Below are positions 4,628 through 18,536 of a stretch of DNA of 19,026 nt, one piece after another; within the stretch, counting starts at the first letter, position 1, and the number at the start of each line of letters is the position of its first letter. Below the pieces are notes generated by a model, which worked only from the letters and a program-made list of their open reading frames with translations, did not search any database and was not told the origin of the DNA. This stretch comes from Promethearchaeota archaeon. GTDB taxonomy: Archaea; Asgardarchaeota; Lokiarchaeia; Sigyniarchaeales; SOKP01. The stretch covers positions 1 through 19,026 of the forward strand of contig JAHLWS010000050.1 in NCBI GenBank assembly GCA_019057795.1. Reading direction: 5' to 3'. The position numbers and the translations under genes are program-made.

Positions 4628-5232
4628 ATACCTATATCACAAAAGGTAGGTTTAGATTATTTTCCATTAGATACTGATATGGAGAAAGACGATAAAATTA
4701 CTTGAATAGAAGCTAAATATGGGATTGTGGGTTTCGGTGTAATTATAAAACTATTTAAAAAAACCTATCATAGTGATGGCTATTATTGTAATTGGAATGA
4801 GGAAATACAATTACTCTTTTCTAAAAAATAGGAGTTGATTTTGAGAAAGTTATAGAAATTGTAAATGATGCAATTAAATGGAATTTATTTGATAACAAAT
4901 TATTTAAAAAACATAAAATACTTACTTCTAAGCGAATACAAAAAACATATATTAGTGTCACATATAGAAGAAAGAAAGTAGAAATTATAAAAGAATATAT
5001 AGTAAATGGAATAAATGATTACATAAATAAAGTAAATGTATACATAAAATCAATAAATGATAGCAATAATAAACAAAGTAAAGTAAAGAATAAATATATA
5101 CATATTTTAAATTTTTGGAACTTAAAAGAAATAATGAAACATAGACCATTAAAGCCAATTCTTAAACAAATAAAAATGGCTTATAAGAAACATGGAAAAG
5201 ATAAGATAATTAAAGCTATTGAAAATTGCTAA
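4628..5232 (+). pseudogene. DUF4373 (Lin1244/Lin1753-like) phage replication initiator, disrupted
   Basis: RBS AAGGAGG then ATA. Translates to GLDYFPLDTD...KI.*IEAKYG..GFGVIIKL...GYYCNW. TGA at 4703-4705 and a frameshift in the A-run at about 4823-4828. Continues LFD...ILTSKRIQKTY...QSKVK. Confidence 0.8.
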
Positions 5233-5335
5233 ACAATCTAAAAGAAGCCCTTTTTTTCTTAATTTATCGTGCTAAACAACCATAGCAGAGATAATATTTC
5301 TCCTGGCTCTTTTTATATATCGGAGGTTATTGTAT

Positions 5336-5483
5336 ATGTCATCAAATAAACCATCCCCACCCTGTAGATATCCCCTATGCCCAGAGCTTCAATATATTTT
5401 AGGTCACAAATATCTATCTTCTATACAGATTACACCCATATATAGCCTAAAGATCTACATAAAAAGCTAAGGAAGGATAAATA
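5336..5483 (+). pseudogene. Chimeric relic: phage HNH-endonuclease N-terminus joined to a tyrosine recombinase C-terminus
   Basis: GGAGG RBS, then MSSNKPSPPCRYPLCPEL (like the MPxKPxRPCxxPGCPxL start of phage HNH proteins) running into QYILGHKYLSSIQI-(frameshift)-YTHI*PKDL (integrase LGH...TQIYTH box). Confidence 0.5.
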
Positions 5484-5644
5484 AGAAAAGAAAGATGAAG
5501 ACTTAAAAAATTTAGTAGATCAACTGATTGAACAACAGAAACTAACTATGAAAGTCTTGGAAGCTATTACTGAAAGAATAAATAAGTAATTTATAAAAAT
5601 ATATTGTTAAATAGCTTTAACAAAAGATATATTCTTACTAAAAT

Positions 5645-5668
5645 ATTTCATATAAAAATAGTTAGGCG
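5645..5668 (+). other. attI-like site, start of the GIY-YIG gene cassette
   Basis: ATTTCATATAA-aaata-GTTAGGCG. GTTAGGCG (5661) complements, with one mismatch, the R'' box CGTCTAAC (6232) after the gene. The spacer is 1 nt shorter than in the other copies. Confidence 0.6.
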
Positions 5669-5683
5669 ATATTTTGTTTAGAG

Positions 5684-6181
5684 GTGAATACTAAGATGAA
5701 TAGACACAATCAAGTGAATTGTTGCGAGGATCTTTTTACCGAATTCAAGTTTCAGGATTTGCGAAGTGCTTCTCCACCAAATAAAAGGGGAGTATATGTT
5801 TTACGAGTCAAAAAAGAGGGCAGTTCTGTAAAAGAAATAGTTGAGCAACTAAAACAGCTTGTACAAAATCTTAACTGGACATTAGTTGAAAATTATATTC
5901 TTAATCGTATCAGCCGCCTTGAAAAGATAAATCAATGTCCAATAATATACATTGGTGCTGCAGGAACTCACAAAGACAGCAAAAATACTCTGAAAGGACG
6001 GTATAAAGAATTTTCTATGCGTCATACAGTAATGTATCCTATTTGGGCTTTGCTTTATTTTGGTTGGGAATTGGAATTTGGATGGAGGGAAGAAGATGAC
6101 CCAGGAAATGTGGAAAGTCAATTAAAACAAAAATATATAGAAAGACATAAAAATAAATTACCAGCTTTGGTTAAACAATGA
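5684..6181 (+). CDS. GIY-YIG-superfamily nuclease-like protein carried on an integron cassette
   Basis: GVYVL...IIYIGAAG...LKGRY...VESQL..KY...LP. Bounded by an attI-like site and an attC. Confidence 0.65.
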   Translation: MNTKMNRHNQVNCCEDLFTEFKFQDLRSASPPNKRGVYVLRVKKEGSSVKEIVEQLKQLVQNLNWTLVENYILNRISRLEKINQCPIIYIGAAGTHKDSKNTLKGRYKEFSMRHTVMYPIWALLYFGWELEFGWREEDDPGNVESQLKQKYIERHKNKLPALVKQ

Positions 6182-6231
6182 TGAAATACAAAACAAAATG
6201 CTGCCCCCTTACGGGACTTGCACTAACTGGT

Positions 6232-6314
6232 CGTCTAACACAGCATATATGGCTCTCTTCGTTAACCCAAATTTCAGCTTCGCCAAAACCTCGTATATAC
6301 TGAAAGCGTTATAT
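6232..6314 (+). other. attC integron cassette recombination site
   Basis: R'' CGTCTAAC, L'' region CAGCATATATG (6241), L' region CGTATATACTG (6292), R' GTTATAT (6308). Imperfect palindrome of 83 bp, 50 bp after the stop codon. Confidence 0.75.
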
Positions 6315-6416
6315 GAAATTTATATAGAAATAAGTCGATGCAATAATAAGAAGAGAAAAAAATACAGGATCAATAGTTACATAAAAGCAAGATTGAAATA
6401 ATAGAGAGTATCACAA

Positions 6417-6779
6417 ATGGAAAAACCAAGATATTTTTGTCAAGAATGTAATAAAGAATTAGAACCAGATCAGAAAGTGTGTCCGGTTTGTAAAAGTAGT
6501 AAACGTCTAATAAAGAAGAAATTAGAGGGAGAAATTAAACCAAGAGGCAGTATTGGAGCGAAACAGAAACGAAAAGGTTTTAAGAGACCTCTAAAAGAGA
6601 TTATTAAGGGTTGGTTTGAAAGCGGAGACAAAAAGAAACATCCTAAAGATGTTATAAAAGAAAGGGTAATTGATAGAGAAAAAGATATATATGAAGAAAA
6701 AGTAGTTGATATAAAAACAGGTAAAACTACTCGCGATATTAAAGAACCGCTAAGTAAACATGGGACAAAGAGGAAATAG
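6417..6779 (+). CDS. Zinc-ribbon-containing hypothetical protein
   Basis: CQEC...CPVC at the N-terminus, basic central part, C-terminal RVIDREKDIYEEKVVD...TG...EPLSKH. Lies directly after the attC. Confidence 0.7.
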   Translation: MEKPRYFCQECNKELEPDQKVCPVCKSSKRLIKKKLEGEIKPRGSIGAKQKRKGFKRPLKEIIKGWFESGDKKKHPKDVIKERVIDREKDIYEEKVVDIKTGKTTRDIKEPLSKHGTKRK

Positions 6780-6838
6780 AGAAGATTAAAAATAAATGAT
6801 TCATTTATTGATTTTTATTTTAGTATAATTATTTTATT

Positions 6839-8086
6839 ATGGGCCCAATTATTATATTTGATAAATCTACTTTACAAAGCCTGAGTGTTGATGAGTCTTG
6901 TTGGCTTGAAAATTTCTTCTTAACCAACTTAACGCCAATATTTTTTATTGAGTGTTTGGCAGATTTAGAAAAACTAATAAAAGGGAACAAGACGCCTCAA
7001 CAAATGGTTTATGAATTAGCGTTAAAAACACCCCAAAGTTGGTCTTATCCAAATGTATACCATCATAGATTAATAGTTGGCGATTTACTTGGTTACAAGA
7101 CTGAAATGTCAAACCGCCCCATTATAAGAGGTGGTAAATTTAAGGTCACAACTAATGGAAGACTAGGTGTTCATTTTAATCAATTTCCAGAAGCAGAAGT
7201 TATGCAAAGATGGCAAAATATGGAATTCTTGGAAATCGAGCATAGTATTGCTAAAGAATGGAGACAATCGCTATCAAATATCAGCTTTGATAGTTTTACA
7301 GGTTTGGTAAAAAATATTATCCCACAAGGAAAGAGGTTTAAAAGCCTAGAGGAGATAAAGAATTTTGTTGACTCTTTTGTCAAAGGAGACTATAAAGATC
7401 GTCTCCATTTGGCTTTCAAAATTTTGGGAATTCCTTCTCAATTTCAATTTCATATAATAAATAGATGGCTATATGAGAAATGCCCAACCCTAAATGATTT
7501 TGCTCCTTATGCTTCTTATGTGCTAAAAGTTGATTTGTTCTTTTATCTTAGCTTGTTATCAAATTTAATCTCTGGAGATAGACCAAGCAATAAGATAGAT
7601 TTAGCCTATCTTTACTATCTTCCCTTTTGTATGGTTTTTACATCAAATGACAAACTTCATAATAAAACAGCACCTCTTTTTATGGAAAAGGGGCAAGTTT
7701 TTATTAATGGTCAAGATCTAAAATCTAACCTAAGGGTGCTAGATGATTATTATTCAAAATTTCCTGATGAGGTCAAGGATCAAGGTATAATGAAATTTGC
7801 TGTTTATCCTCCAGAGAATATAGACAATTTGGTATCGCAACTTTGGGATAAGTTTTTACCAATTTGGCGAAAACACCTAGAAGAAAAAAAATCCAAGCCC
7901 CAATTGTCTGAGAAGTCTGAAAAAGAGTTGATCCAGAGTCTTAGAAGAGATCTGAATGAGTCAATTCTTTTAGATATGTCTGTACAAGCTACAACAAATG
8001 AGGCTGACCACGTTGTATTTAAAAGAGAGGTTAGAACAAAAAAAGGGAAATGGAGAATTTTACCGCCGGAAGTTGAAAAAAAATAA
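6839..8086 (+). CDS. Hypothetical protein, probable PIN-like fold
   Basis: N-terminal IIIFDKS, E in FFIECLAD and late NKIDLAYL..LPFCMVFTSNDK match the order of PIN acidic residues. Confidence 0.55.
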   Translation: MGPIIIFDKSTLQSLSVDESCWLENFFLTNLTPIFFIECLADLEKLIKGNKTPQQMVYELALKTPQSWSYPNVYHHRLIVGDLLGYKTEMSNRPIIRGGKFKVTTNGRLGVHFNQFPEAEVMQRWQNMEFLEIEHSIAKEWRQSLSNISFDSFTGLVKNIIPQGKRFKSLEEIKNFVDSFVKGDYKDRLHLAFKILGIPSQFQFHIINRWLYEKCPTLNDFAPYASYVLKVDLFFYLSLLSNLISGDRPSNKIDLAYLYYLPFCMVFTSNDKLHNKTAPLFMEKGQVFINGQDLKSNLRVLDDYYSKFPDEVKDQGIMKFAVYPPENIDNLVSQLWDKFLPIWRKHLEEKKSKPQLSEKSEKELIQSLRRDLNESILLDMSVQATTNEADHVVFKREVRTKKGKWRILPPEVEKK

Positions 8087-8650
8087 TAAAGATAAATTGT
8101 TGAATTATTTAACAAAACAGTATTTTCTTAAAAGAAAAGATATATTTATCTTATTAAAGTAATATAAGCATTCTTTTCAGGGGAAATGCTAAGGTTGAAA
8201 ATTTTTTAAATGGCCTACATTTTATAAAGATTTTTTAAAAAATTTTTTTTATATATTTCAATAGTAATTAATTCAAGATTAATTTAAGGTAGTTCATAAA
8301 TATATAGGCGTCAATACTTTTGAAAACTTTCTTAAAGTAAGGTTTTGATTCTTTTCCCAAAAAGAAGAATAATATAATGTCTACCTCTTTTATTCAATTT
8401 CTACCATCTGGTGGTATATTATACCTAAAATTTGCACTATAATTGCACTATGTGTGGTTAGGTTCATCTTCAGCTATTTCTTATCATTTATTTTATTAAG
8501 TAATCTATTTCAATCTGTTATTCTTTATAATGAATGTAGAATAATGTAAAGAACAAAAATAAATTATTGGAAGAGCAATTAACATACCACAGATATAGTT
8601 GGAGTAGAAAATTATTTAAAAAATAATATATTAAAAATCATTAAATTAAA

Positions 8651-8674
8651 ATTTCATATAAAAACAAGTTAAAA
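8651..8674 (+). other. Orphan attI-like simple site
   Basis: ATTTCATATAAA-AACAA-GTTAAAA. Same geometry as the attI1 core (CCCTAAA-ACAAA-GTT) and the sites at 15770, 16336 and 17076. Confidence 0.5.
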
Positions 8675-8914
8675 AGTTATATTTATTTTTATAATAGGGG
8701 TATAGTATATTAAATAGCTTTAGCCTTCGCTCCCTAAACTGTGTGAATCTGTTAATTTCTGCAGTATTGCATAAGGAGGTATATTTCTTATTTCATTATA
8801 TTATCAATTATTTTGATACTATTATTAAATAATAAATTCTCAATTAATACTTTTTACTTGTCTAAAAAATAAAATTTATACTATTATATAAATAATTAAT
8901 TTGATTATAAAACC

Positions 8915-11083
8915 TTGCAACAATCTAAGCTTATGGAAAAATTTATAAAACTTAGCATTGATAGAATTAAGCTCTTTAATTTACCTATTAATGTAAAAGA
9001 TGAACAAATAGGTATAGCAATAAGTGTTAACTCAATAAAAGAAACTGAGAATGAAATTGTGATTGATATCTCATACCGGGATCAAGAATTAAATGAGGAA
9101 ACCAAACAAATAAATCTATCCTATAATAAAAATAAATTAAGTCCATATGATTATATACTTATTGGATGGATCTATATAGTATATTATTATTGTAAAAGTT
9201 TCACTGAAAAAGATGAGCATTATAAAAATACAGCAAAGGAATTTCTAATAAAATCAATTAAAAAAGGAGTTAATTCTTGTTTGCCACATTATTTACTTGC
9301 AGATTATCCGTTAAATTACATAGAAGGTATAAATCGTTTAGATAAGCTATATTTTGCCTTAGATGTTTATGATGACACCTTTCCTGATTTTTATTCTTTG
9401 GTGTATAAGGAAGACAAAAATAAAATTAGGGCTATAGGTTTATTAAAAAAAGGTTTAGAGAAATTTCCTACCAGTTTTATTTTAAATTATCACCTTTCAA
9501 ATTATCTAATCAGAAAAAAAGATTACAAGGAAGCTTTAAAATTTCTAAGAAAGATAAATTTAAAAGAATATGAAGATTATTATGGTCATAGATTTCTTGT
9601 ACATCTTTTTTATAACGTGTTTATGTGCAATATTAATCTTGGTGATTTTGATAAAGCAGAAAGAACCATAAAAGATAATGTTGTATTTAACAAATACGAG
9701 ATATCATTACTTAGGGGATTATTAGAACACCACAAGTCTGAATTTGAAGCTGCATCAAATTATTTTTTAGAATGTATTCAGAAAAATTTATCAATGTTAG
9801 TAAATTATTGCAGTTACTATTATCTTTTAGATTGTTATGTTAAATTAAAAAAATATGACCTATTAAATGATATATTAAGCGTTATTCCTGATGAGAAGAT
9901 AGATTATCTCGATTATTATTTAAATATGGTATTCCAAGATTTAGCAGAAAGTTGTTTAGAAGAAATTATTAAATTAGATATTGATGAAATGTCTATTGCA
10001 AGAGCAAAAGGTCTGTTAGCTCCAATAATTTTATATGAAAGATTGCCTAATTTTAATTATGAACCAAAAAGAATTCTTACAAAAAAAGAAAAAAATCTTT
10101 TAGAAAAAACAGAGTCACTAATTAAAGATACCCTAAATTTTTATCCAATTAATCAGTTTTTCCTAACAACTTTTTCAGATGTATTATTCCTTAAGGGTAA
10201 ATTTGATGAGTCTATGATTGTGAAGTTGAAAAGTTTGGAATGTAGGATTTATAACCAAGTTTCTGAAGCGTATACAAATATCTCTTTAGAAAACTGTACC
10301 GAAACATTTATAAAGAATTATAAAAACCGAATAGAAGAAATATTCTCTGAAAAGAAAAAATTAAAAGAAATTTATGTAAAAGAGCAACTTCCATTAGATA
10401 TAAAAGATTTATTTAGTATGAAAAGATATGATGTAATAAACAATTTATATTTTTACCTTAGAGAAGATATAGATTTTGACAATTCAGATTACCTTTTTGA
10501 GATTGCATATTCCTTAAAGGAGGAAGAATATGTTGATGAAGCAGAAATTATCTATAACAAGATTTTAGAAAGAGAACCCAAGAATACTTCAGTATTAAAC
10601 AACCTAGCTATAATATTTGAGAAAAAAGGAGAATTAGATAAAGCAATAGATTTAATAAAAACAGCAAAGGATTTAGATCAAAAAGACACTGTTATAATCA
10701 ATAATTTTAATAGAATTACAGGTCTGGTTAAACATAAGAAGGGAAAGAAAAGGAAAATAAATTTTGAAATAAAGCAAAAACCAAAATTACATTTTGACAC
10801 TGAAAAAAGTAGAATTTTTTATGGTAATAAATTTTGTGAAATTCCTATTAGTACTTATGAATATTATTTATGTAAGGCAATTTTTTCTAAACCATTAGGG
10901 ACTAAAATATCAGAAGAAGAGATTTTTGAGGTTTTGGATAGAGCTAAGCTAGTAGAAAGAAGTAGAACAATTTATGATACTTGCCTAAGGATTAATAAAA
11001 AAGTAGAAAGTAGTATAGGTTTAAAAAAAATACTAATAAATAGAGGCGCTATGATTTGGATTAGAGATGAATTTATAAAGTGA
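8915..11083 (+). CDS. TPR-repeat protein with C-terminal winged-helix (OmpR/PhoB-like) DNA-binding domain
   Basis: TPR motifs such as EAEIIYNKILEREPKNTSVLNNLAIIFEKKGELDKAIDLIKTA. C-terminal FD...IFYG..CEIP...YYLCKAIF...RTIYDTCLRINKKV. True start may be the ATG at 8933. Confidence 0.75.
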   Translation: MQQSKLMEKFIKLSIDRIKLFNLPINVKDEQIGIAISVNSIKETENEIVIDISYRDQELNEETKQINLSYNKNKLSPYDYILIGWIYIVYYYCKSFTEKDEHYKNTAKEFLIKSIKKGVNSCLPHYLLADYPLNYIEGINRLDKLYFALDVYDDTFPDFYSLVYKEDKNKIRAIGLLKKGLEKFPTSFILNYHLSNYLIRKKDYKEALKFLRKINLKEYEDYYGHRFLVHLFYNVFMCNINLGDFDKAERTIKDNVVFNKYEISLLRGLLEHHKSEFEAASNYFLECIQKNLSMLVNYCSYYYLLDCYVKLKKYDLLNDILSVIPDEKIDYLDYYLNMVFQDLAESCLEEIIKLDIDEMSIARAKGLLAPIILYERLPNFNYEPKRILTKKEKNLLEKTESLIKDTLNFYPINQFFLTTFSDVLFLKGKFDESMIVKLKSLECRIYNQVSEAYTNISLENCTETFIKNYKNRIEEIFSEKKKLKEIYVKEQLPLDIKDLFSMKRYDVINNLYFYLREDIDFDNSDYLFEIAYSLKEEEYVDEAEIIYNKILEREPKNTSVLNNLAIIFEKKGELDKAIDLIKTAKDLDQKDTVIINNFNRITGLVKHKKGKKRKINFEIKQKPKLHFDTEKSRIFYGNKFCEIPISTYEYYLCKAIFSKPLGTKISEEEIFEVLDRAKLVERSRTIYDTCLRINKKVESSIGLKKILINRGAMIWIRDEFIK

Positions 11084-11128
11084 CTCAATTGACTCACTAA
11101 CTAACTCAAAATATTCAAACTTGACTCA
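11081..11128 (+). repeat. Four direct T(G/A)ACTCA heptamers, operator- or iteron-like
   Basis: TGACTCA at 11081, 11090 and 11122; TAACTCA at 11102; inverted copy TGAGTTA at 11176. Confidence 0.65.
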
Positions 11129-11140
11129 CATTAAATAAAG

Positions 11141-11174
11141 ATAGACTCTTATAAAAAGAGTCTATTTTTATTTT
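11141..11174 (+). terminator. Perfect 10-bp hairpin followed by a T-rich tract; intrinsic terminator and/or Rep nick-site hairpin
   Basis: ATAGACTCTT-ATAAA-AAGAGTCTAT followed by TTTTATTTT. Confidence 0.6.
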
Positions 11175-11187
11175 ATGAGTTAAAGAT

Positions 11188-11352
11188 ATGGATCACAATA
11201 TATATCAAAAATTATATAAAAAAGAATTAAAGAAGGAAGAAAAATTTGAAATTGAAAATAATTTATTTGGATTTTTCGAGCTTCTTATTGAAATTAACAA
11301 GGAACTAGAGAAAGATGATAGACACAATAGTACTAACAATTCCAAAAAGTAA
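11188..11352 (+). CDS. 54-aa protein overlapping the rep start (not in the ORF track)
   Basis: MDHNIYQKLYKKELKKEEKFEIENNLFGFFELLIEINKELEKDDRHNSTNNSKK. The EIxxNLxGFFELL helix resembles small ORFs I recall upstream of island serine recombinases. Confidence 0.6.
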   Translation: MDHNIYQKLYKKELKKEEKFEIENNLFGFFELLIEINKELEKDDRHNSTNNSKK

Positions 11353-12469
11353 ATATACTATTATTAATTATGATAGATTTAGTCCTTCTACAAGAGGGCT
11401 TTTTGAAAGCCCCTACTATAATTTAGGTGCAAGGAATAATTTTTCATGTAAACAAAACCCAACTAAAAAAGATTTTTTAAGTGGAATATACAAACCCAGG
11501 TTAACTGTTACCAAAAGGGTAAGAAAAGGCGGTTATGTAACACCTTTAAGAATTGAATTTTCAATACCAAAGCTTATATTTTCAAACAATTTTGATGAGA
11601 TCCAAGAAAATGATTTTGAACTGGTTATAAAGAAATTAAAAGAAAGATTAAAGGATATGGAGATACTTATAAAAGAAAGCGACCTCACAAATGCCAACGT
11701 ATCATCAATTCATTTTTCAAAAAATATAGCTCTAACTGATTATTCAAGTTGTTCAATGGTTATAAATGACCTAGCAAAAATTAATTTAACCAAAAGGTTG
11801 GATTTAAATAAAACTTCTTTTAGAAATGGAGGTCAGGTTATTCATTATCACTCTAACTCATATGAAATTGCTATATATAATAAAATAAAAGACTTAGAGA
11901 AGGCAAAAATAAGTGAAAAGAGATCCATAGAAAAAGATAATATTATTCAAATAAACCTATTAGATAATTTAAATAAAAAAAAGCCATTTGAAGTTTTAAG
12001 AATAGAGGTTAGACTAAATGATAGAAATAAAATTAAAAGGCTCTTAAAACGCCTAAATATAGCCCTAGAATCTACTTTTGTAAACCTTTTTAACCAAGAT
12101 ATATCTGAAAGCATATTAACTTATTTCTGGGATGAAATTATAAAAAATACTCGCTTTTTATCTATAGATACCAGAGAACCATTTAAATTACTTGAAATAA
12201 TAATTAAAAATAATCCTAATATAAAAAACTCAAAAGCTTTGAAGTTACTTGCTTCCATTATTGTTATGCAAAATGCTGGAGCTAGAAATTTCAGAAATTT
12301 GATCAATAATAGCTCTAGAAACAACAGATTCTGGTATAGTCTCAAGAAAGAAATAAAACAACTAAGTTTACCTATGGATAGTAGATATAACTCTATTACT
12401 GAAATAAGTAAATTAATTAGAAGTTTTAAACCATTAAAGTTAAAATATCATCAATTAGAAAGAATCTAA
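11315..12469 (+). CDS. Phage/plasmid rolling-circle replication initiator, gene II/X (Phage_CRI / Rep_trans-like) family
   Basis: Motif order MIDT...IEFSIPKLIFSNNF...VSSIHFSKN...IAIYNKIKD...VLRIEVRL. Confidence 0.65.
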   Translation: MIDTIVLTIPKSKYTIINYDRFSPSTRGLFESPYYNLGARNNFSCKQNPTKKDFLSGIYKPRLTVTKRVRKGGYVTPLRIEFSIPKLIFSNNFDEIQENDFELVIKKLKERLKDMEILIKESDLTNANVSSIHFSKNIALTDYSSCSMVINDLAKINLTKRLDLNKTSFRNGGQVIHYHSNSYEIAIYNKIKDLEKAKISEKRSIEKDNIIQINLLDNLNKKKPFEVLRIEVRLNDRNKIKRLLKRLNIALESTFVNLFNQDISESILTYFWDEIIKNTRFLSIDTREPFKLLEIIIKNNPNIKNSKALKLLASIIVMQNAGARNFRNLINNSSRNNRFWYSLKKEIKQLSLPMDSRYNSITEISKLIRSFKPLKLKYHQLERI

Positions 12470-12480
12470 AAAGTAAATAT

Positions 12481-12759
12481 GGGAATATTAGAGCATTTTT
12501 TAAAAGAATATTGGATAATAAAAGTAAAATCACAGGATATATTGAAGAAAAGCATCCAAATATTAAATAATCAGACTTTATTGAAAACAGGGAACAAATA
12601 CAAAGATACATAGAAGCTTTTTCAAATTTTATTTTGGCTAATTAATAAAAGATCATATATATTAATGAAGAACAATTTTTCAATAGTATAAGTAAAGAAG
12701 TTTGTAATTATTATATTGTAGGCTATCAGGTTATAACTAAATGGTTTTAAGACAGAAGG
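12481..12759 (+). pseudogene. Collapsed Type ISP/IIG restriction-modification gene: nuclease N-terminal fragment joined to C-terminal specificity fragment
   Basis: KITGYIEEKHP..*SDFIENREQIQRYIEAFSNFILAN, then IYINEEQFFNSISKEVCNYYIVGYQVITKWF*DRR. These resemble the GYIEAK...EQLxRY...NLILTN and YIN..QYF...VW...IGGYQV..KWLKDRK motifs. Confidence 0.65.
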
Positions 12760-12766
12760 AGTAAAA

Positions 12767-14305
12767 ATGAAAGCAATAATACTTGCCAGAGTATCAACAA
12801 AAGAACAAAAAGAATTAGGTCATTCTTTACCTGCCCAAGTTATAAAACTTAAAGAATATGCACAAAAAAAAGGTTTTGAAGTTATAAAAGTATTTTCATT
12901 TTCTGAAACTGCTGGAAAAAAGATAAGAAAAAGATTTGAAGAGGTAAAAAAATATTTTAGGAAAAATAAGGATGTCAAAGTTCTTCTAGCTCAAAATGTG
13001 GATAGAGCAACAAGAAATTTTAGGGATGCAGTTGATTTAGATGATATGAGAATAAATGAAGGACTTGAAATACACTTTGTTCAAGATGGCTTTTATATTA
13101 ATGCTGAATCAACAGGAAGCCAGCTATTTATGTGGGAAGCAAAAGTATTTTTGGCAAAGCAATATATAAATAGATTATCTGATGATGTTAAAAGAAGCAT
13201 TGAGCAGAAAATTAGAAATGGTGAATGGACAAGCAAAGCACCAATAGGCTATTTAAATGTAAAAGATGAGATAACTGGCAAAAATACAATTATTTTAGAT
13301 AAAAAAAGATCATTTCTAATAAGAAAAGCTTTTGAAGAATATTCTACTGGCATTTACTCATTAAAAGAGATTACATCTAATTTAAAAAAATACGGACTAA
13401 GAGCAAACACAAAAAGTAATAAACCATTACATAAAAGTGCTGTTTATAAAATGATAAATAATCCTTTTTACTATGGTTATATGAGAATAAAGAATAAGCT
13501 ATACCCTCATAAATATGAGCCAATTATAACTAAATATCTATTTGATAAATGTCAAGAAGTAATTAATAGCTATTCTAAAAAACCATTTAAGTATTCTGCA
13601 AAACCATTCATATTTAGAGGTCTCATTAAATGTGCTTATTGTGGATGCACAATTAGCTCAGATAAAAAGAAGAACAAATATATTTACTTATCATGTTCGA
13701 AGTATAAAGGTAATTGCGACTCGATAAGAGTTAGAGAAGAAGTTATCCTAGAGCAAATAAAAGATATTTTTGAAAATATCCAAATCCCAAAAAGAATATT
13801 AGAAGATGTTAGAGAGTATCTAATTAAGACAAATGATTCTAAAAGGAAATTTCAAAAATGCGAAGAAAAACAAATACGCGAAGAATATAATAAAATTCAA
13901 AGAAAACTAGATAGATTACTTGATATGGAACTTAATGAGAGTATTACTCAAGATGAGTATGATAAAAAAGCCTATCAATTAAAGCAAAGACAATATGAAT
14001 TAAATGAAAGACAAAAACAATATATAGAAGCAGATGAAGAGTTCTCTTTTACGCTCATAAACCTTATGGAATTAGCCTCTAGAGCCTATGAATTATTTGA
14101 ATTTTCGAAAGTAGAACAAAAAAGAAAACTAATAAATTTCGTACTTTCGAACTTAAAATTAAAGGGTAAAACATTAGAATTTGAGCCTAGAAAACCCTTT
14201 AATGTCTTCATAAATCTTAAAAATGCTAAAAACCGTTCTGTTTGGCTGGGGAGAGAGGACTCGAACCTCTGCTTGTGGATCCAAAGTCCACCGTCCTACC
14301 ACTAG
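12767..14305 (+). CDS. Large serine recombinase (resolvase, recombinase, zinc ribbon and coiled-coil domains)
   Basis: ARVSTKEQ with catalytic Ser10, DRATRN, APIGY, NPFYYG, FRGLIKCAYCG...YLSC...C. RBS AAGGAG. Confidence 0.95.
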   Translation: MKAIILARVSTKEQKELGHSLPAQVIKLKEYAQKKGFEVIKVFSFSETAGKKIRKRFEEVKKYFRKNKDVKVLLAQNVDRATRNFRDAVDLDDMRINEGLEIHFVQDGFYINAESTGSQLFMWEAKVFLAKQYINRLSDDVKRSIEQKIRNGEWTSKAPIGYLNVKDEITGKNTIILDKKRSFLIRKAFEEYSTGIYSLKEITSNLKKYGLRANTKSNKPLHKSAVYKMINNPFYYGYMRIKNKLYPHKYEPIITKYLFDKCQEVINSYSKKPFKYSAKPFIFRGLIKCAYCGCTISSDKKKNKYIYLSCSKYKGNCDSIRVREEVILEQIKDIFENIQIPKRILEDVREYLIKTNDSKRKFQKCEEKQIREEYNKIQRKLDRLLDMELNESITQDEYDKKAYQLKQRQYELNERQKQYIEADEEFSFTLINLMELASRAYELFEFSKVEQKRKLINFVLSNLKLKGKTLEFEPRKPFNVFINLKNAKNRSVWLGREDSNLCLWIQSPPSYH

Positions 14306-14316
14306 ACGACTCCCCA
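14243..14316 (-). tRNA. tRNA-Gln (anticodon TTG), CCA encoded
   Basis: Reverse complement TGGGGAGTCGTCTAGTGGTAGGACGGTGGACTTTGGATCCACAAGCAGAGGTTCGAGTCCTCTCTCCCCAGCCA folds as a cloverleaf. Anticodon at 14284-14282, T-loop GGTTCGAGTCC. Confidence 0.97.
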
Positions 14317-14413
14317 ATAAGATTTAGATTAAATTATATTTATTTTTAATTTAGGATTTTTTATTGGGTAATTTTATATCTAAAGATAGTATATCAAAAA
14401 AAATTGAAATATT

Positions 14414-14575
14414 TTACTTTGTAAAAATCATATGTAAGGATATTAGAAATAAAGCAAACCCAAATAATTTTCTTAATATTTCACTTGATAATCCAATAGC
14501 TATCTTTGCATCAATTAAACCACTAATAGTACCTGATAATAATCCAATCAGTATATAAAGAATAATGTTAACCAT
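14414..14575 (-). pseudogene. TauE/SafE (TSUP) family membrane protein with an internal deletion
   Basis: AAGGAG RBS. MVNIILYILIGLLSGTISGLI joined to DAKIAIGLSSEILRKLFGFALFLISLHMIFTK. The family N- and C-termini are fused and the GIGGG region is missing. Confidence 0.6.
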
Positions 14576-14871
14576 ATTCTTTCTCCTTTAATTTTTAATT
14601 GAATTGCATTTCTTTAGATTAAAAAATGTATTACAGATTATACAACCTAATTAATATATGTCAAAAATTTTAAATTTTAAAGAATCACAAAGTCAATATG
14701 AAAAAGAGTTAATTATTTTCTGGATTAAGTATTAAGAAAATAATGATTTTTTGACTCCTAATGAATTCTTCTGAAGGTGTTATAAGTGAAGTTCATACTT
14801 GTAAATAAATTATTAAATAATTATGTATAATTAATCTAAAAAATGGGTGGTGAAATTTACTCAGCTGCACT

Positions 14872-15182
14872 TTTGAAAATTTATCAAATAGTTCAAAAAC
14901 TGGAAGAATGTACTTCAGAATTGAAGGAGTGCACGGTATTAGCTCGGTAGATGTTAAAAGTGGTAAAGGTGAAGCTAAATTAGGAGGGGGGCAAGCCTTG
15001 ATTGAGTGTTAATAGTAGAAGGCAGCTGTATGAAAGAAAGCACGTGGGAGCATAATATAAGACAACGACTAACCGATAAAATAGGTATAGCAGCATTTGC
15101 CACTACTCCTAAAGGGAAAATATGGATACACAAATTATATGATGAAAAGAGAAGTCTCTGCAGGCATTATTATGTGGTGTAG
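14872..15182 (+). pseudogene. Phage terminase large subunit ATPase fragment
   Basis: SSVDVKSG...GGGQ, frameshift, then LD*VLIVEGSCMKESTWEHNIRQRLTDKIGIAAFATTPKGKIW. Resembles the RG.GLD..hhDE Walker B, IRPxLxD and TPKG.NW motifs. Confidence 0.55.
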
Positions 15183-15211
15183 ACTAACTAACATGCCCCT
15201 GTGTCATACAG

Positions 15212-15355
15212 CAGCTAACATTCCTGGCGTTGGATTAGCCCTCTATGCACAGGCTGATAAGTAACTTCTGCACGCCAAGACACTCTATTAAAAATGTTTT
15301 TTACCCACTGATAAGGAGCGAGTTTGTGCGTCAGTTGTCAGCAGCTTGTTAAGGG
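15212..15355 (-). other. Degenerate or mosaic attC-like region
   Basis: Minus strand CCCTTAAC-aagctgctgacaactgacgc (attC-like left arm) and ggaatGTTAGCTG (R'-like). The arms pair poorly with each other. Confidence 0.35.
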
Positions 15356-15443
15356 AAGCAGTTGCATTCATTGTTCATGTTTGAGTGATCCTGACATTGA
15401 CAAGCTCATCTACAGCATATGTATTAGTAAGGCTGGTGGACTT

Positions 15444-15671
15444 TCACGGTTGCCAAGTGGGGCTACCATCAGACGCAGGGTTGTTCGTTAACCTAGTCTG
15501 TTGCGAGCCATCAGAATTCATTACGTAGATTTCAGCGTTGCCATCGCGTCCGGAGATGAAGGCAATACGACTTCTAATAGATGGTTTTTCTGGAACACAA
15601 CTAACTATTAAAATAATCGCAATCACCAACACCACGAAGAGTGTCAAAACTCTTAAATTTTTTGTGTTCAT
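15444..15671 (-). CDS. Short lipoprotein with one TolB/PD40-like repeat; first cassette of the left platform
   Basis: Signal peptide with lipobox IVSC, then [34 protein letters not shown]. Confidence 0.7.
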
Positions 15672-15763
15672 CTTTATTATGATTTATTATCTAATTTCTT
15701 GCGAAATAATTTGATTCCGACCTTTAAATATTTTACCTTTTTCAAGGTGAGGTTCGGAACTTC

Positions 15764-15791
15764 AAATAACTCGGTTTTATACGAAATGTTT
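15764..15791 (-). other. attI-like site of the left integron platform
   Basis: Minus strand aaacATTTCGTATAAA-ACCGA-GTTATTT. The crossover G (15770) is 115 bp from the relic integrase start. Confidence 0.7.
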
Positions 15792-15884
15792 TCTTTATAA
15801 CAACACTAACTTATATATTATACAGAATATATAAAAATTATCTTATAGTTTAAACTGTTTAAATTTTAACAAATCCATAAAATT

Positions 15885-15950
15885 ATATAAAATTATCTGA
15901 AACAAATCGAAATAGAGTTAAAACTTAGAAATTACAGCTTAAAAACTATC
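15885..15950 (+). pseudogene. 5' stub of an integron-type tyrosine integrase
   Basis: ATA TAA AAT TAT, translating as (I*)NYLKQIEIELKLRNYSLKTI. Homologous to QKQLNQTEKELRLRNYSPKTV of the relic at 16961. Confidence 0.7.
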
Positions 15951-16314
15951 GGAAAGGTGGAAGGGAGTTAAAACCATACTTTGTATATCAAAAATGCTCT
16001 ATAGGTAAGGTTCTATTTACATTTAATTCAACCTAAACCATAAAAGGCATAGAAAAATAAAGACAGGTAATCTAATATTAATCCAATGTGGGAGTTAAAC
16101 CCCACTCCCATAATTTAGCAATAACATTGTCTACCATAGTATATATTTTTAGTAAATATTTATATAAATACGTATACATTTCAGTAGTTTTGTATATATT
16201 TTTATATTGACAAAAAATAAAAAATTTATGTATCTGAGAGAGAGGTAAAAGTTATCTGATAATAACGCGATGGTGCAACCCTTTTAATAGTATGATATTA
16301 AAAACTATCATATT

Positions 16315-16342
16315 AAACATTTCATATAAAAATTAGTTAAGT
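16315..16342 (+). other. Orphan attI-like simple site
   Basis: aaacATTTCATATAAA-AATTA-GTTAAGT. Shares the upstream AAACA with the two integrase-linked sites. Confidence 0.55.
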
Positions 16343-16434
16343 AAAATTGCAGTTTTTTAACTAAAAGGGGAGATTATATAGAGATATAAAATTATTTTTT
16401 ATTAGAATGGTAACCAATATAGGGAGATGAAAAA

Positions 16435-16515
16435 ATGAAAAGTAAAAAAAAGAAAAAGTTAGATAGACTAAGACATAGAAAACGAGAAAAAAAGAAAAGA
16501 AAAGGTAAAAAATGA
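16435..16515 (+). CDS. 26-aa Lys/Arg-rich peptide
   Basis: MKSKKKKKLDRLRHRKREKKKRKGKK with GGGAG upstream. Confidence 0.3.
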   Translation: MKSKKKKKLDRLRHRKREKKKRKGKK

Positions 16516-16580
16516 ATAAAAAAATATTTATTTATTTTTATAAAAAGGGGTATAGGGGTATAAATACCTGTGGCTTTCAC

Positions 16581-16961
16581 TCCATAGGCTAGCGAAAGTA
16601 AAAGTTTATGTTTTGTGTTCTTAGTTGCCTTTATTACTTTTTCAATTTCGTTCCTTGAGAGAATGACCGGAAGTTTCTTTTTTCTCTTTGCAGACCGTAT
16701 ATCGATCTTTTGGTTTGTTTTTATAACATTGCGGTAGAAAAACTTTATTGCGTTTAAGAATAGATTGTGTGTTTGGGCAGAAGCACCATCTTTTTGTTTT
16801 TGAAGTAGAAAATCTTTAATGTTTTCAATATCCAAAACTTCAAGACGCCGCTTTTTAAAGTTAAAATATTCCTCGAGAGCGTAAAGATAGCTTTTAACTG
16901 TTTTAGGACTATAGTTGCGAAGCCTGAGTTCCTTTTCTGTTTGATTTAGTTGCTTTTGTAT
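16581..16961 (-). pseudogene. Truncated integron-type tyrosine integrase (SAM-like N-terminal domain; catalytic domain lost)
   Basis: The frame extends up to ATA at 16961: QKQLNQTEKELRLRNYSPKTVKSY...SAQTHNLFLNAIKFFY...KKLPVILSRNEI...KHKLLLSLAYG. It breaks just before the catalytic GLR. The rest of ORF 16392-16580 is read-through. Confidence 0.85.
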
Positions 16962-17054
16962 AATCGGAAAAAATTTGTTAAAGTTAAAACAACTATGTAA
17001 AATATTAGTTTAACAGATTTTTGTATAACACACAATTAAGACATAAAATTGCGA

Positions 17055-17087
17055 AAACAGTTCGTATAAAAACGAGTTATACGAAAT
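17055..17087 (+). other. attI-like site of the right integron platform
   Basis: aaacagTTCGTATAAA-AACGA-GTTATACGAA. The crossover G (17076) is 115 bp from the relic integrase start. Confidence 0.75.
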
Positions 17088-17132
17088 AAAATGTCTGCAT
17101 GAAAGAGGTATTATATAGATATTATTTTAATT

Positions 17133-17672
17133 ATGTTTATTGCATTTGGATTAGCAATGGATGCTTTCGCTGTATCTATCACAAGTGGATTAACAATTAA
17201 ATCCTTGAAAATTAATAATGCTTTAAGGATTGCAATATTTTTTGGGTTATTTCAGGCGATTATGCCATTAATTGGGTGGTTAGCAGGACTTAGCTTCCGA
17301 GATTTTATTTCAGGCGTTGACCATTGGATAGCTTTTGGACTTCTAAGCATAATAGGCTGTAAAATGATTTATGAATCATCTAAAATGGAGTTAAGCAACA
17401 AGAGAATAAATCCGCTGAATGTTTATGTTCTGCTGATGTTATCTTTTGCAACAAGTATCGATGCTTTGGCTGTTGGTTTAAGCCTATCATTCTTAAACGT
17501 TTCCATTGCACTACCTGCAATAATAATTGGAATTGTAACATTTTTACTATCGATTTTTGGTGTTTATCTTGGTAATAGATTTGGACACTATTTTGAAAGA
17601 AAAATCGAAATAATCGGTGGTTTAATTTTAATTGGTATTGGAATAAAAATATTAATTGAGCACTTAACCTAA
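17133..17672 (+). CDS. mntP: Manganese efflux pump MntP family protein (cassette 1)
   Basis: GLAMDAFAVS, FGLFQAIMP, DHWIAF, ATSIDALAVG, EIIGGLILIGIG. The RBS-aligned start is ATA at 17115. Confidence 0.93.
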   Translation: MFIAFGLAMDAFAVSITSGLTIKSLKINNALRIAIFFGLFQAIMPLIGWLAGLSFRDFISGVDHWIAFGLLSIIGCKMIYESSKMELSNKRINPLNVYVLLMLSFATSIDALAVGLSLSFLNVSIALPAIIIGIVTFLLSIFGVYLGNRFGHYFERKIEIIGGLILIGIGIKILIEHLT

Positions 17673-17689
17673 AGGGCGACAGTTTAGAT

Positions 17690-17781
17690 CATATAACACG
17701 GTGTATGCGGTTCGGGTTAATGACCTTACTGAAATGCTCAGCTTTGCCTCGCACTTCGCATATACCCAGAACATTATACGC
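17690..17781 (+). other. attC site with R' mutated from GTT to ATT
   Basis: R'' CATATAAC, L'' GGTGTATGCG, L' CGCATATACC, R' ATTATACGC. Starts 17 bp after the mntP stop. Confidence 0.75.
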
Positions 17782-17831
17782 AAGCGGCTTCGTGACACCA
17801 AAATAAGAAAATTTAAAAATAGTAAACAATT

Positions 17832-18464
17832 ATGATAGGTGATAAGAAAATGAACAAACAAATATTTCTAAAATGGCTTAAAATTAACAGTTTATGTTTC
17901 ATAGGTGCCTTTATTGCAGTATTCCTTTTGGTCCAATTATTTCCCAATATCATGCTCGGATTTCTAGGAGGATGGACTACTTTAATAGAGATGACAGGAG
18001 CTAAGAAGATGGCAGAACTTCCTTCCAGGTTTGATGCATTCATTCATACACTTTCCAGAAACAGCGTCTCGATCATTATTGTTTTTATCACTGCACTACT
18101 CTTGCAGGCACCAATTTTGATGGTAGTGTTTGGTTCATTCTATTCTCTTATAGCTTTTCTTGCCCCGCTAACGATTGGAAAAACATTCGCTCTTTTCGAT
18201 TGGATTCTAATTGCAACCGAAGCACTTTTCTTTATTGTAACTGCCACTTTTGCATCAACTCTTGCTACGGAAGTATTTGGAGTAAAACCAGAGAAAAAAC
18301 AGATATTAGAGTATTGGAAAAAAAATTGGAAGAAGTTACTTCCTGAGCAAAAAAGAAGTTGGAGGATTGTGTTCAAAGAAAACATGAAAGAATTTACCTT
18401 TTTCATCATAATAATTTTAGCATTACTCATATTTGGAGCATGTTTTGAAGTTTGGGGTTATTGA
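17832..18464 (+). CDS. Integral membrane protein, SpoIIM (DUF95)-like (cassette 2)
   Basis: Several hydrophobic helices, FIH...RN, a mid-helix Glu and C-terminal LLIFGACFEV. Likely start at 17850 after AGGTGA. Confidence 0.55.
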   Translation: MIGDKKMNKQIFLKWLKINSLCFIGAFIAVFLLVQLFPNIMLGFLGGWTTLIEMTGAKKMAELPSRFDAFIHTLSRNSVSIIIVFITALLLQAPILMVVFGSFYSLIAFLAPLTIGKTFALFDWILIATEALFFIVTATFASTLATEVFGVKPEKKQILEYWKKNWKKLLPEQKRSWRIVFKENMKEFTFFIIIILALLIFGACFEVWGY

Positions 18465-18536
18465 AATGGAAAGAAGTCAAATGGTGTCCCTTCGCTGACT
18501 CTTCGGAATGCTTCGCATTCCTTTTCCCTATCGGGA

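What the first reader, a model, noticed from the sequence alone, without database searches (positions are those of the whole stretch)
8915..14305. Candidate new integrative rolling-circle element: TPR-wHTH sensor, gene II-like Rep and large serine recombinase at tRNA-Gln
Seen: an uninterrupted co-oriented module of TPR-wHTH, heptamer repeats, hairpin, 54-aa ORF, Rep and recombinase, with no capsid, Zot-like ATPase or conjugation genes. Known: gene II/Rep_trans proteins initiate rolling-circle replication in filamentous phages and plasmids and act as MOB-T relaxases in some mobilisable elements. Phage satellites mostly use tyrosine integrases with primase/helicase replication. Inference: a helper-dependent satellite or mobilisable island. 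The TPR domain could sense a helper protein, the wHTH could bind the repeats to switch on rep and excision, and the defence genes to the left could be cargo.
Basis: partly seen in the sequence, partly recalled or inferred. Interest (0 to 1): 0.8.

Follow-up and report, generated by a model that had tools for sequence, protein, structure and literature searches.

The report
tRNA-inserting plasmid-like element with serine recombinase
This is one copy of a widespread mobile DNA element, for which I found no published description, that inserts into the end of a tRNA gene with a serine recombinase and carries a distant relative of the filamentous-phage DNA-nicking replication protein; relatives exist as free 7.6-kb circles and mostly carry restriction-modification genes.

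Summary
Window 8915-14316 holds, all on the + strand, a TPR + winged-helix gene, four TGACTCA heptamers, a hairpin, a 54-aa gene, a 384-aa 'Rep' and a large serine recombinase. The last 20 codons of the recombinase are antisense tRNA-Gln.

- **Rep:** it matches no Pfam model itself. Of 114 family representatives, 18 hit Phage_CRI (gene II). Its model is closest to the Rep_trans initiators RepDE and RepSTK1.
- **Conservation:** Rep plus a downstream serine recombinase occurs in 67 of 81 loci across many phyla, and 45 of these end in an antisense tRNA. The exact TPR-wHTH/54-aa/Rep/recombinase order recurs in three other loci.
- **Mobility:** a relative was assembled as a 7.58-kb circle in two samples. 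Integrated relatives break exactly at its 10-bp core.
- **Window's own subfamily:** I found an empty attB, plus attL and attR sites with core TGGCTGGGGA (window 14243-14252).
- **Cargo:** between Rep and the recombinase, relatives carry mainly restriction-modification genes. No capsid or conjugation genes were seen.

Not shown: the replication origin, nicking, TPR 'sensing', and helper dependence. The window's attL is not on the contig, so its left boundary is open.

Two earlier follow-ups of this scan found the same family on other DNA. I found no published description.

The parts
8672..8914 (+). Conserved leader and promoter region of the regulator gene
   Evidence: 85% identical over 250 nt to the stretch just upstream of the TPR-wHTH gene in L127. 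Similarity starts at window 8672.
8915..11083 (+). TPR + OmpR/PhoB-type winged-helix protein (P0002). The wHTH is residues 626-709 (about nt 10790-11041).
   Evidence: TPR Pfam hits. The C-terminal 90-aa domain is shared with the upstream gene of 35 of 73 loci. Its AF2 model (pLDDT 88) matches only OmpR/PhoB DNA-binding domains, TM 0.65-0.72. Full-length homologues sit next to Rep in L125, L126 and L127.
11081..11128 (+). Four direct T(G/A)ACTCA heptamers (spacing 9, 12, 20 nt). The first includes the stop codon. An inverted copy lies at 11176-11182.
   Evidence: The first two copies are conserved in L125, L126 and L127. Phased repeats occur in this position in 25 of 73 loci, against 7% of shuffles.
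11141..11165 (.). Hairpin (stem TAGACTCTT, loop ATAAA) followed by a T-run. Probably the regulator gene's terminator or operator; a role at the origin is not excluded.
   Evidence: The stem sequence is conserved in L125, L126 and L127. It is absent from L003 and only half present in L004, although their Rep is 89-90% identical.
11188..11352 (+). Conserved 54-aa protein gene that overlaps the Rep start by 38 nt
   Evidence: Found in 11 of the genome loci by BLASTP and in L125-L127. Substitutions follow the coding pattern pos2 < pos1 < pos3. No family hit.
11315..12469 (+). Rep (P0001): gene II / Rep_trans-fold candidate rolling-circle initiator. Invariant residues E95, K136, N137, G173, Y188, K190, E231, R233.
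12470..12766 (+). Rep-recombinase spacer. This is the cargo slot in relatives and is empty here.
   Evidence: The gap is 298 nt here, against 0-6.7 kb of mostly restriction-modification genes in relatives. About 120 nt are missing in L004.
12767..14305 (+). Large serine recombinase (P0004). Residues 493-512 and the stop codon are encoded by antisense tRNA-Gln.
   Evidence: Resolvase + Recombinase + Zn_ribbon_recom domains. PHROG 95 integrase at 9e-67. CcrC/CcrB-like.
14243..14252 (.). attR core TGGCTGGGGA (the 3'-terminal 10 nt of tRNA-Gln), where crossover occurs
   Evidence: The identical core lies in the empty attB (L099 = G151:C17), in attL of L003 and L126 (L125 has TGGCTGGGA), and in attR of L003, L004, L126 and L127. 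Similarity of the window to the empty site starts at 14242.
14243..14316 (-). tRNA-Gln(UUG), intact. Its 3' end is supplied by the element.
   Evidence: ARAGORN; Rfam 66.6 bits.

Best explanation
The segment is the conserved core and right end of an integrative, plasmid-like element.

Shown by comparison:
- The large serine recombinase recombines a 10-bp core in the element's attP with the 3'-terminal 10 nt of a tRNA gene (tRNA-Gln here).
- attP lies inside the 3' end of the recombinase gene, and the element carries a replacement tRNA end. The tRNA therefore stays intact, while the last 16-20 codons of the integrated recombinase come from the host tRNA.
- Excision gives a free circle.

Inferred:
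- On the circle, the gene II/Rep_trans-fold Rep nicks one strand through Tyr188 and starts rolling-circle replication, which maintains or amplifies the circle.
- The upstream protein binds the phased TGACTCA repeats at the end of its own gene through its OmpR-type winged helix. It thereby controls the 54-aa-gene/rep operon, or helps define the origin.
- Its TPR part is a protein-binding input of unknown ligand.
- In relatives the element is chiefly a vehicle for restriction-modification genes. Here that cargo slot is empty, and the left arm may carry the cassette-like genes to the left.
For: 1. Recombinase class.
2. Free circle: L161 and L162 come from two samples, are 99.99% identical and circularly permuted, and have 123/127-nt terminal overlaps. 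Together they carry recombinase, Rep, a type II restriction-modification pair and small DNA-binding proteins, with no capsid or transfer genes.
3. Integrated relatives L015, L012, L147 and L150 match the circle up to its core TGGCTCCCCC. They resume with the circle's next bases 8.9-11 kb upstream.
4. Window subfamily: the empty attB in G151:C17 is 94-96% identical to window 14242-14849. The left flank of L003's attL matches the attB left flank, and L003's attR P-arm matches the window's at 44 of 45 positions.
5. Rep:
- 18 of 114 family representatives hit PF05144, best 3.8e-8.
- The AF2 model has pLDDT 81.6.
- The best solved folds are RepDE (Z 9.4, 231 residues aligned) and RepSTK1 (Z 8.1). 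Foldseek's top four hits are RepSTK1 chains.
- The alignment to M13 gpII is collinear: MID N-terminus, IEFSxPK against VEIKASPAK, FYDK against AYLK, RMEVRL against RFEARI.
- The Rep_trans active-site layout is taken from PMC4797284.
6. Linkage: Rep with a same-strand downstream recombinase in 67 of 81 loci, and an antisense tRNA at the recombinase end in 45.
7. wHTH and repeats.
8. Cargo.
Against: - No attL (core plus P' arm) is on the contig or elsewhere in the assembly. This copy may therefore be unable to excise, or it is longer than 14.2 kb.
- P0001 itself reaches no Pfam, PHROG or NCBIfam model.
- Profile comparisons with single gpII and RepC sequences are statistically weak: hhalign E 0.037 and 0.23.
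- The Rep_trans residues R(Y-2) and the R-x-D-x-A-x-D strand are replaced (S-x-H-x-S-K-N), so the chemistry is unproven.
- No origin or nick site was identified.
- The only conserved hairpin travels with the regulator gene rather than with Rep.
- The circles were found for a relative whose Rep is 48% identical, not for this element.
Confidence: 0.72

Rival explanations
1. Integrative mobilisable element. Rep acts mainly as a MOB-T-like relaxase: it nicks an oriT so that a co-resident conjugative element can transfer the excised circle.
For: Rep_trans-fold proteins serve as relaxases in Tn916/ICESt3-type elements and in streptococcal mobilisable elements, which can also carry serine recombinases (PMC5704250). 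The element has no transfer genes of its own.
Against: Most hosts are Patescibacteria, Rickettsiales-like and other reduced genomes, where conjugation machinery is rare (background knowledge, not tested here). No coupling-protein or T4SS family appears among 92 cargo proteins. The nearest sequence family is phage gene II, not MOB-T. Circles that assemble independently in two samples fit autonomous replication.
Confidence: 0.12
2. Helper-dependent phage satellite or defective filamentous prophage. Rep makes single-stranded circles that a helper virus packages, and the TPR domain senses the helper.
For: Rep is related to gene II of filamentous phages. The elements are small and carry defence genes, as many satellites do.
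Against: There is no coat, Zot/pI-type ATPase, secretin or packaging gene in the window, in a complete circle, or in the cargo set. There is no relative in 2.9 million IMG/VR contigs or 50,697 phage records. TPR is limited to one small subclade.
Confidence: 0.06
3. The window's copy is a stranded remnant. Its core genes are intact, but its left attachment site has been lost through the cassette rearrangements that riddle this region, so it no longer moves.
For: No attL is on the contig or in the assembly. A related genome holds a recombinase fragment cut off by a dispersed repeat (G151:C18). Dispersed repeats sit at 8552-8700, just left of the regulator gene.
Against: Rep, the recombinase, the regulator and the 54-aa gene are all full length with every invariant residue. 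The contig is only 19 kb, and L003 and L125 show that attL can lie many kb to the left. attL may therefore simply be off the contig.
Confidence: 0.3

Closest known systems
Filamentous-phage gene II protein (Pfam PF05144 Phage_CRI; M13 gpII)
   Same: The only sequence family hit by members of the Rep family (18 of 114, best 3.8e-8). It has the same N-terminal MID start and the same collinear motifs. The alignment pairs Rep Tyr188 with gpII residue 197, which I recall as its DNA-linking tyrosine.
   Different: The window's own protein does not reach the model. There are no phage morphogenesis genes. It is linked to a serine recombinase, and the hosts are mostly Patescibacteria and other uncultured lineages.
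Rep_trans initiators (pT181 RepC/RepD, RepSTK1; PF02486) and MOB-T relaxases
   Same: Best structural matches (Z 9.4 and 8.1). The fold is the same crescent, TBP-like sheet. The shared motifs are (R)IEF.P.K, Y-x-K and R-x-E.
   Different: No HMM match. The metal-binding strand R-x-D-x-A-x-D is replaced by S-x-H-x-S-K-N, and the arginine two residues before the tyrosine is missing. The C-terminal helical domain is different.
Integrative and mobilisable elements of Bacillota with a serine recombinase and/or a Rep_trans protein (PMC5704250)
   Same: Small integrative elements with a serine recombinase, a rolling-circle-type initiator or relaxase, cargo genes, and no transfer apparatus.
   Different: Those serine recombinases insert inside protein genes and disrupt them. 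This family targets the 3' end of tRNA genes and rebuilds them, which is the habit of tyrosine integrases. Its Rep belongs to a different family and the host range differs.
Staphylococcal/enterococcal cassette chromosomes (SCC; CcrA/B/C)
   Same: The recombinase's best NCBIfam hits are CcrC and CcrB (far below the equivalog cut-offs). Both insert at the 3' end of a conserved housekeeping gene, and both are excised circles that carry replication genes (the SCC replication genes are from recall, not tested here).
   Different: SCC uses rlmH, not tRNA, and helicase/primase-type replication genes, not a nicking initiator.
Actinomycete integrative elements such as pSAM2 (AICEs)
   Same: They integrate at a tRNA 3' end and replicate by a rolling circle after excision (from recall, not tested here).
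   Different: AICEs use a tyrosine integrase, an HUH-type Rep and an FtsK-like transfer protein. None of these is present here.

Membership tests
Phage_CRI / gene II (PF05144) | Match to the family HMM | tested here: inconclusive
   P0001 has no hit even at E <= 10. However, 3 of 26 and 18 of 114 homologues hit it, best 3.8e-8, and no other family recurs.
Phage_CRI / gene II (PF05144) | Collinear catalytic motifs, including the DNA-linking tyrosine | tested here: met
   The profile alignment pairs Y188-x-K190 with M13 A-Y197-L-K, R229-x-E231-x-R233 with R-F-E-A-R, and IEFSxPK with VEIKASPAK. Y188, K190, E231 and R233 are invariant in 114 representatives. That Tyr197 is gpII's active tyrosine is from recall.
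Rep_trans (PF02486) | Match to the family HMM | tested here: not met
   No hit for P0001 or any of 114 homologues. A six-frame search of the assembly found none.
Rep_trans (PF02486) | Crescent-shaped catalytic fold | tested here: met
   4cwc_A: Z 9.4, rmsd 4.1, 231 residues. 4cij_A: Z 8.1. Next come TBP folds at Z 6.6. Foldseek's top four hits are 4cij chains, at E 2e-3 to 1e-2.
Rep_trans (PF02486) | Active-site residues R-x-D-x-A-x-D, R-x-Y-x-K and R-x-E (PMC4797284) | tested here: not met
   Y-x-K and R-x-E are present. The first strand reads S-x-H133-x-S-K136-N137, and the arginine at Y-2 is absent.
Large serine recombinase | Resolvase catalytic domain + Recombinase domain + zinc ribbon | tested here: met
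   PF00239 at 1e-17, PF07508 at 5e-14, PF13408 at 1e-10. The N-terminal A-R-V-S10-T motif is present.
Large serine recombinase | Short crossover core with little attP/attB identity | tested here: met
   A 10-bp shared core, with unrelated arms in attP, attB, attL and attR. This holds for the Asn subfamily and for the window's Gln subfamily. The 2-bp crossover itself was not mapped.
OmpR/PhoB winged-helix (Trans_reg_C) | Sequence match to the Pfam family | tested here: not met
   No Trans_reg_C hit for any of the 34 domains.
OmpR/PhoB winged-helix (Trans_reg_C) | Fold: N-terminal beta-sheet, three helices, C-terminal hairpin wing | tested here: met
   The model has pLDDT 88.4. All 50 top PDB matches are response-regulator-type winged-helix DNA-binding domains, nearly all OmpR/PhoB family, with TM mostly 0.6-0.72 and probability 0.97-1.0.
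Integrative and mobilisable element | Own integration and excision module with att sites | tested here: inconclusive
   The recombinase and attR are present, and attB, attL and attP were found in relatives. The window's own attL was not found.
Integrative and mobilisable element | oriT/relaxase used by a helper conjugative element | not testable with these tools
   There is only a Rep_trans-fold protein as a candidate. No transfer genes are among the cargo.
Phage satellite / inovirus prophage | Capsid, packaging, morphogenesis or helper-interference genes | tested here: not met
   None in the window, in the complete circle, or among 92 cargo proteins. No relative in IMG/VR or INPHARED.

The most novel reading that the evidence does not exclude
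The elements form an undescribed, phylum-spanning class of 'integrative rolling-circle plasmids' with two built-in switches.

1. Integration swaps the recombinase's C-terminal tail: 540 aa on the circle against about 485 aa when integrated. This would make integration and excision differ without a separate directionality factor.
2. A swappable winged-helix protein, rather than Rep, gives the origin/operator its specificity. Its variable N-terminal domain (TPR here) would couple replication and excision to a cellular or phage signal.
Probability: 0.15. Interest if true: 0.85.

Novelty: new variant of a known kind. Interest (0 to 1): 0.68.

Why it matters
- Serine recombinases are prized genome-engineering tools, and I know of none that target tRNA genes. 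This family offers dozens of natural enzymes with short, conserved tRNA-end targets (Asn, Arg, Gln, Pro, His, Asp, Gly, Glu).
- The recombinase gene is itself rearranged by integration.
- The elements appear to be a main vehicle for restriction-modification genes in Patescibacteria and other poorly known, mostly uncultured bacteria. Plasmids and other mobile DNA are poorly known in these groups, and replicons for genetics are lacking.
- The 7.6-kb circle, with a defined Rep and attP, is a ready candidate shuttle backbone.

Tried and rejected
**Searches that found nothing or too little**
No read mapping for attP junctions or coverage was possible, and read laying was not attempted.
- A profile of the Rep family against PDB sequences gave no hit.
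- hhalign of the family against the single sequences RepC and gpII gave collinear but statistically weak alignments. The -glob mode failed.
- Homologues of RepC, fetched to build a Rep_trans profile, were all over 86% identical and so useless.
- PF02486 in 151 genomes of the assembly's order: none.
- An empty site among 40 relatives of the assembly: none, and not even the tRNA was found.
- No relatives in plasmids, phages or IMG/VR.

**Left boundary of the window's element**
- Searches for the tRNA 3' end, for the core with up to 2 mismatches (at chance level), for P' arms of relatives and of the whole assembly all failed.
- The 66-nt stretch 8561-8626, shared with L004, looked like an element end. 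It proved to be a dispersed repeat.

**Other dead ends**
- The second tRNA-Gln in the assembly is unrelated.
- A plain count of 7-mers with one mismatch did not separate loci from shuffles. The helically phased version did.
- The second family of upstream proteins (21 loci) aligns only weakly with the wHTH profile.
- The Rep-recombinase spacer has no strong hairpin.
- The 44-aa ORF at 12479-12613 matches L127 only because the DNA is similar.
- Complex prediction was not used, because the report claims no protein-protein contact.

Full report
**1. Observation**

The window is a whole 19,026-bp contig (C50) of a 4.95-Mb, 87-contig assembly.

- Four direct T(G/A)ACTCA heptamers begin in the stop codon of the 722-aa gene. 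With one inverted copy, they make up 5 of the 9 occurrences in the whole window.
- A 10-bp-stem hairpin with a T-run follows.
- The 54-aa ORF overlaps the start of the 384-aa ORF.
- The 512-aa ORF runs 63 nt into the antisense strand of an intact tRNA-Gln(UUG).
- No ORF in the window hits a capsid, Zot-like or conjugation family.

**2. The 'Rep'**

P0001 hits nothing in Pfam, PHROGs or NCBIfam, even at E = 10.

- It belongs to a large family of unnamed proteins: 1,464 clusters at 90% identity and 1,067 at 50%.
- When members were scanned one by one, the only recurrent family was PF05144 (gene II N-terminal). It was hit by 3 of 26 and by 18 of 114, best 3.8e-8.
- An AlphaFold model built on 26 sequences (pLDDT 81.6) has RepDE (4cwc; Z 9.4, 231 residues) and RepSTK1 (4cij; Z 8.1) as its best solved neighbours in an exhaustive search. 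Foldseek also ranks 4cij first. TBP folds come next, as expected for this crescent fold (PMC4797284).
- Across 114 representatives, the invariant residues are E95, K136, N137, G173, Y188, K190, E231 and R233.
- A profile alignment to M13 gpII, read from the phage record, is collinear end to end. It pairs MID with MID, IEFSxPK with VEIKASPAK, FYDK with AYLK, and RMEVRL with RFEARI.
- pT181 RepC shows the same order: RIEFNPNK, RLDLAFD, RIYNK, WRVEIEL.
- These pairwise statistics are weak (E 0.04-0.2), so the case rests on the Pfam tallies plus the fold.
- Two Rep_trans signatures are not kept: the R-x-D-x-A-x-D strand and the arginine two residues before the tyrosine.

I therefore file the protein as a new, distant branch of the gene II/Rep_trans fold, not as a member of PF02486. 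Nicking is inferred, not shown.

**3. Is the gene set conserved?**

Seventy-nine genome loci plus metagenome loci were analysed by script.

- A same-strand large serine recombinase lies downstream of Rep in 67 of 81 loci. Eleven of the other 14 have under 3 kb of sequence left downstream of Rep.
- In 45 loci the recombinase's 3' end overlaps an antisense tRNA (Asn most often; also Arg, Gln, Pro, His, Asp, Gly, Glu). ARAGORN misses some: L015 and L012 clearly have a tRNA-Asn end at attR.
- Hosts named in the records span Patescibacteria (many classes), Rickettsiales and other Alphaproteobacteria, Gammaproteobacteria, Omnitrophota, Babeliales, Dehalococcoidia, Ignavibacteriaceae, Pedobacter and Humimicrobiia.
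- The gap between Rep and the recombinase is 0-6.7 kb. Its 92 distinct proteins are overwhelmingly restriction-modification components: N6_Mtase in 17, Eco57I in 12, MmeI in 9, plus type I, III and ISP systems, EcoRI, EcoRII and GmrSD. No transfer or virion families appear.
- A same-strand gene of 150-570 aa sits upstream of Rep in 73 loci. Thirty-five of these share the window protein's C-terminal 90-aa domain. The N-termini are unrelated, and only the window's carries TPR.
- The TPR version is nevertheless a real subclade. Full-length homologues (43-58% identity) sit in L125, L126 and L127 in the same order: TPR-wHTH, 54 aa, Rep, recombinase. L125 and L126 have a restriction-modification system between Rep and the recombinase, and L127 has none.
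- L127 has the window's minimal layout at tRNA-Gln(CUG).

**4. The winged helix and the repeats**

- The C-terminal domain has no Pfam match.
- Its model (pLDDT 88.4) matches only response-regulator-type winged-helix DNA-binding domains, nearly all of the OmpR/PhoB family (all top 50; TM mostly 0.6-0.72). These domains bind direct repeats spaced about one helical turn apart (background knowledge).
- Within 110 nt after the upstream gene's stop, 25 of 73 loci have at least 3 copies of a 7-mer at 9-12 or 19-23 nt spacing. The figure is 25 of 365 for shuffles and 6 of 73 for control stretches inside rep. Related loci are not independent, so the contrast is indicative only.
- The repeat sequence differs between groups of loci (AGCTAAC, ACCTAAA, TCTTAGC, TGACTCA).
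- In the four TPR-wHTH loci the wHTH is nearly invariant, and TGACTCA-AT-TGACTCA at the stop codon is kept. The hairpin stem TAGACTCTT is kept too, while the spacer between them diverges.
- L003 and L004 have a Rep 89-90% identical to the window's but a different upstream gene. They lack the repeats, and they lack all (L003) or half (L004) of the hairpin. DNA similarity to the window starts only at 11187 and 11154.

The repeats and the hairpin therefore belong to the regulator module, not to Rep. The origin is unidentified. It lies either in the shared core or is specified by the regulator.

**5. Integration mechanism**

A metagenome scan gave two contigs, L161 and L162, from different samples.

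- They are 99.99% identical and circularly permuted, with 123- and 127-nt terminal overlaps. This indicates a 7.58-kb circle.
- The circle encodes a 540-aa recombinase, unknown proteins of 199, 158 and 356 aa, a SpoVG-like 97-aa protein, Rep, an HTH_17 (excisionase-type) 67-aa protein, and a methylase plus MvaI/BcnI endonuclease pair.
- L015, L012, L147 and L150 match the circle up to the 10-nt TGGCTCCCCC inside the recombinase's 3' end. They then continue into tRNA-Asn. The circle's next bases reappear 8.9-11 kb upstream, preceded by the same core. This is the attP, attL, attR pattern of site-specific integration.
- It also means the integrated recombinase (about 485 aa in L015) has lost the circle form's tail.

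For the window's own subfamily:

- The genome that holds L004, a Candidatus Humimicrobiia MAG (G151), carries an unoccupied tRNA-Gln(UUG) on contig C17. It is 94-96% identical to window 14242-14849, and similarity starts at the tRNA's 3' end.
- L003's core is 94% identical to the window's. Its attL consists of the same left flank as that empty site, then TGGCTGGGGA, then a P' arm. That P' arm is shared with L126 and L125.
- The window's attR P-arm matches L003's at 44 of 45 positions.

So the core is window 14243-14252. Residues 497-512 of the recombinase and its stop codon are host-encoded.

**6. Left boundary**

- No core plus P' arm exists in the window or elsewhere in the assembly.
- Homology to L127 upstream of the regulator gene begins at 8672.
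- Window 8552-8700 consists of dispersed repeats.
- In L003 and L125, attL lies 6.8 and 3.1 kb left of the regulator gene. The interval holds a short tyrosine recombinase and other genes. Window 5390-5648 is an 83%-identical remnant of that recombinase's 3' end.

The window's element may thus extend left beyond 5390 and off the contig, which would make the nuclease- and TIR-like genes cargo. Alternatively its left end has been lost. I cannot decide between these.

**7. Comparison with known systems, and novelty**

- Literature searches found no description of a serine recombinase that targets tRNA 3' ends, nor of this Rep family.
- A review of integrative mobilisable elements states that their serine recombinases insert within protein genes and disrupt them, whereas tRNA 3' ends are the targets of tyrosine integrases (PMC5704250).
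- The element works like an integrative plasmid. Its nearest analogues are those mobilisable elements, SCC cassettes and actinomycete elements of the pSAM2 type.
- It combines a gene II-like Rep, a tRNA-rebuilding serine recombinase whose gene spans attP, and a modular wHTH regulator.
- Two earlier follow-ups of this scan (e1-2070329 and e1-1042375) described the same family on other genomes. My analysis reached the same picture independently. It adds the Gln-subfamily att sites, the circles, the TPR subclade and the cargo census.

**8. Caveat on the host**

Contig C50 shares more than ten segments at 88-99% identity with contigs of the Humimicrobiia MAG G151. Two 6-kb samples from the assembly's largest contigs share nothing with G151. 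None of 40 relatives of the assembly has this tRNA-Gln. The contig is probably mis-binned (the assembly's contamination is 7.5%), and the host is probably a Humimicrobiia-like actinomycete.

Noticed in passing
window 1-19026 (whole contig): The contig is probably mis-binned. It shares more than ten segments at 88-99% identity with a 1.6-Mb Candidatus Humimicrobiia MAG (G151). Two 6-kb samples of the assembly's largest contigs share nothing with G151. Contig GC is 0.285 against 0.314 for the assembly, and its tetranucleotide correlation ranks 7th lowest of 70 contigs.
   Followed up: partly
window 5381-5690, 8552-8700, 14321-14410, 15763-15913, 16282-16549; also L127:324-557 and 1297-1435, and G151:C16 (four copies): Dispersed 80-250-nt repeats flank single genes like cassette boundaries. 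One family is the 3' end of a short (214-224 aa) tyrosine recombinase gene that is intact in L003 and L125 but only a remnant in the window. This may be an integron-like cassette platform carried inside these elements.
   Followed up: partly
L119 (G151:C18:96659-96963): A 305-nt recombinase 3' fragment is cut off on its 5' side exactly at a dispersed repeat. On its 3' side it ends after TGGCT, the first 5 nt of the att core, and is joined to unrelated DNA. This is a relic of a rearranged element and a hint at where the crossover lies.
   Followed up: partly
L162:6155-6355 and L162:4734-5024: The complete circular relative encodes an HTH_17 (excisionase-type) 67-aa protein just after Rep. It has a SpoVG-like 97-aa protein where the window has its 54-aa gene. 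These are candidate directionality and accessory factors, and they differ between subfamilies.
   Followed up: no
window 1087-1977 and 2924-3712: A 296-aa protein has EVE-like and NucS/PD-(D/E)XK nuclease hits, and a 262-aa protein has a weak CAP12/Pycsar TIR hit and PHROG 3634. Both are plausible defence genes. Whether they belong to the element depends on the unresolved left end.
   Followed up: no
assembly G000: ARAGORN finds only 14 tRNA genes in the 4.95-Mb assembly, so tRNA loci are largely unassembled. This limits any search for empty sites.
   Followed up: no
L015 and L012 attR: The tRNA-Asn at the recombinase end is not called by ARAGORN although its 3' half is plain. An earlier report mentioned an intron-containing tRNA-Asn in this family.
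   Followed up: no
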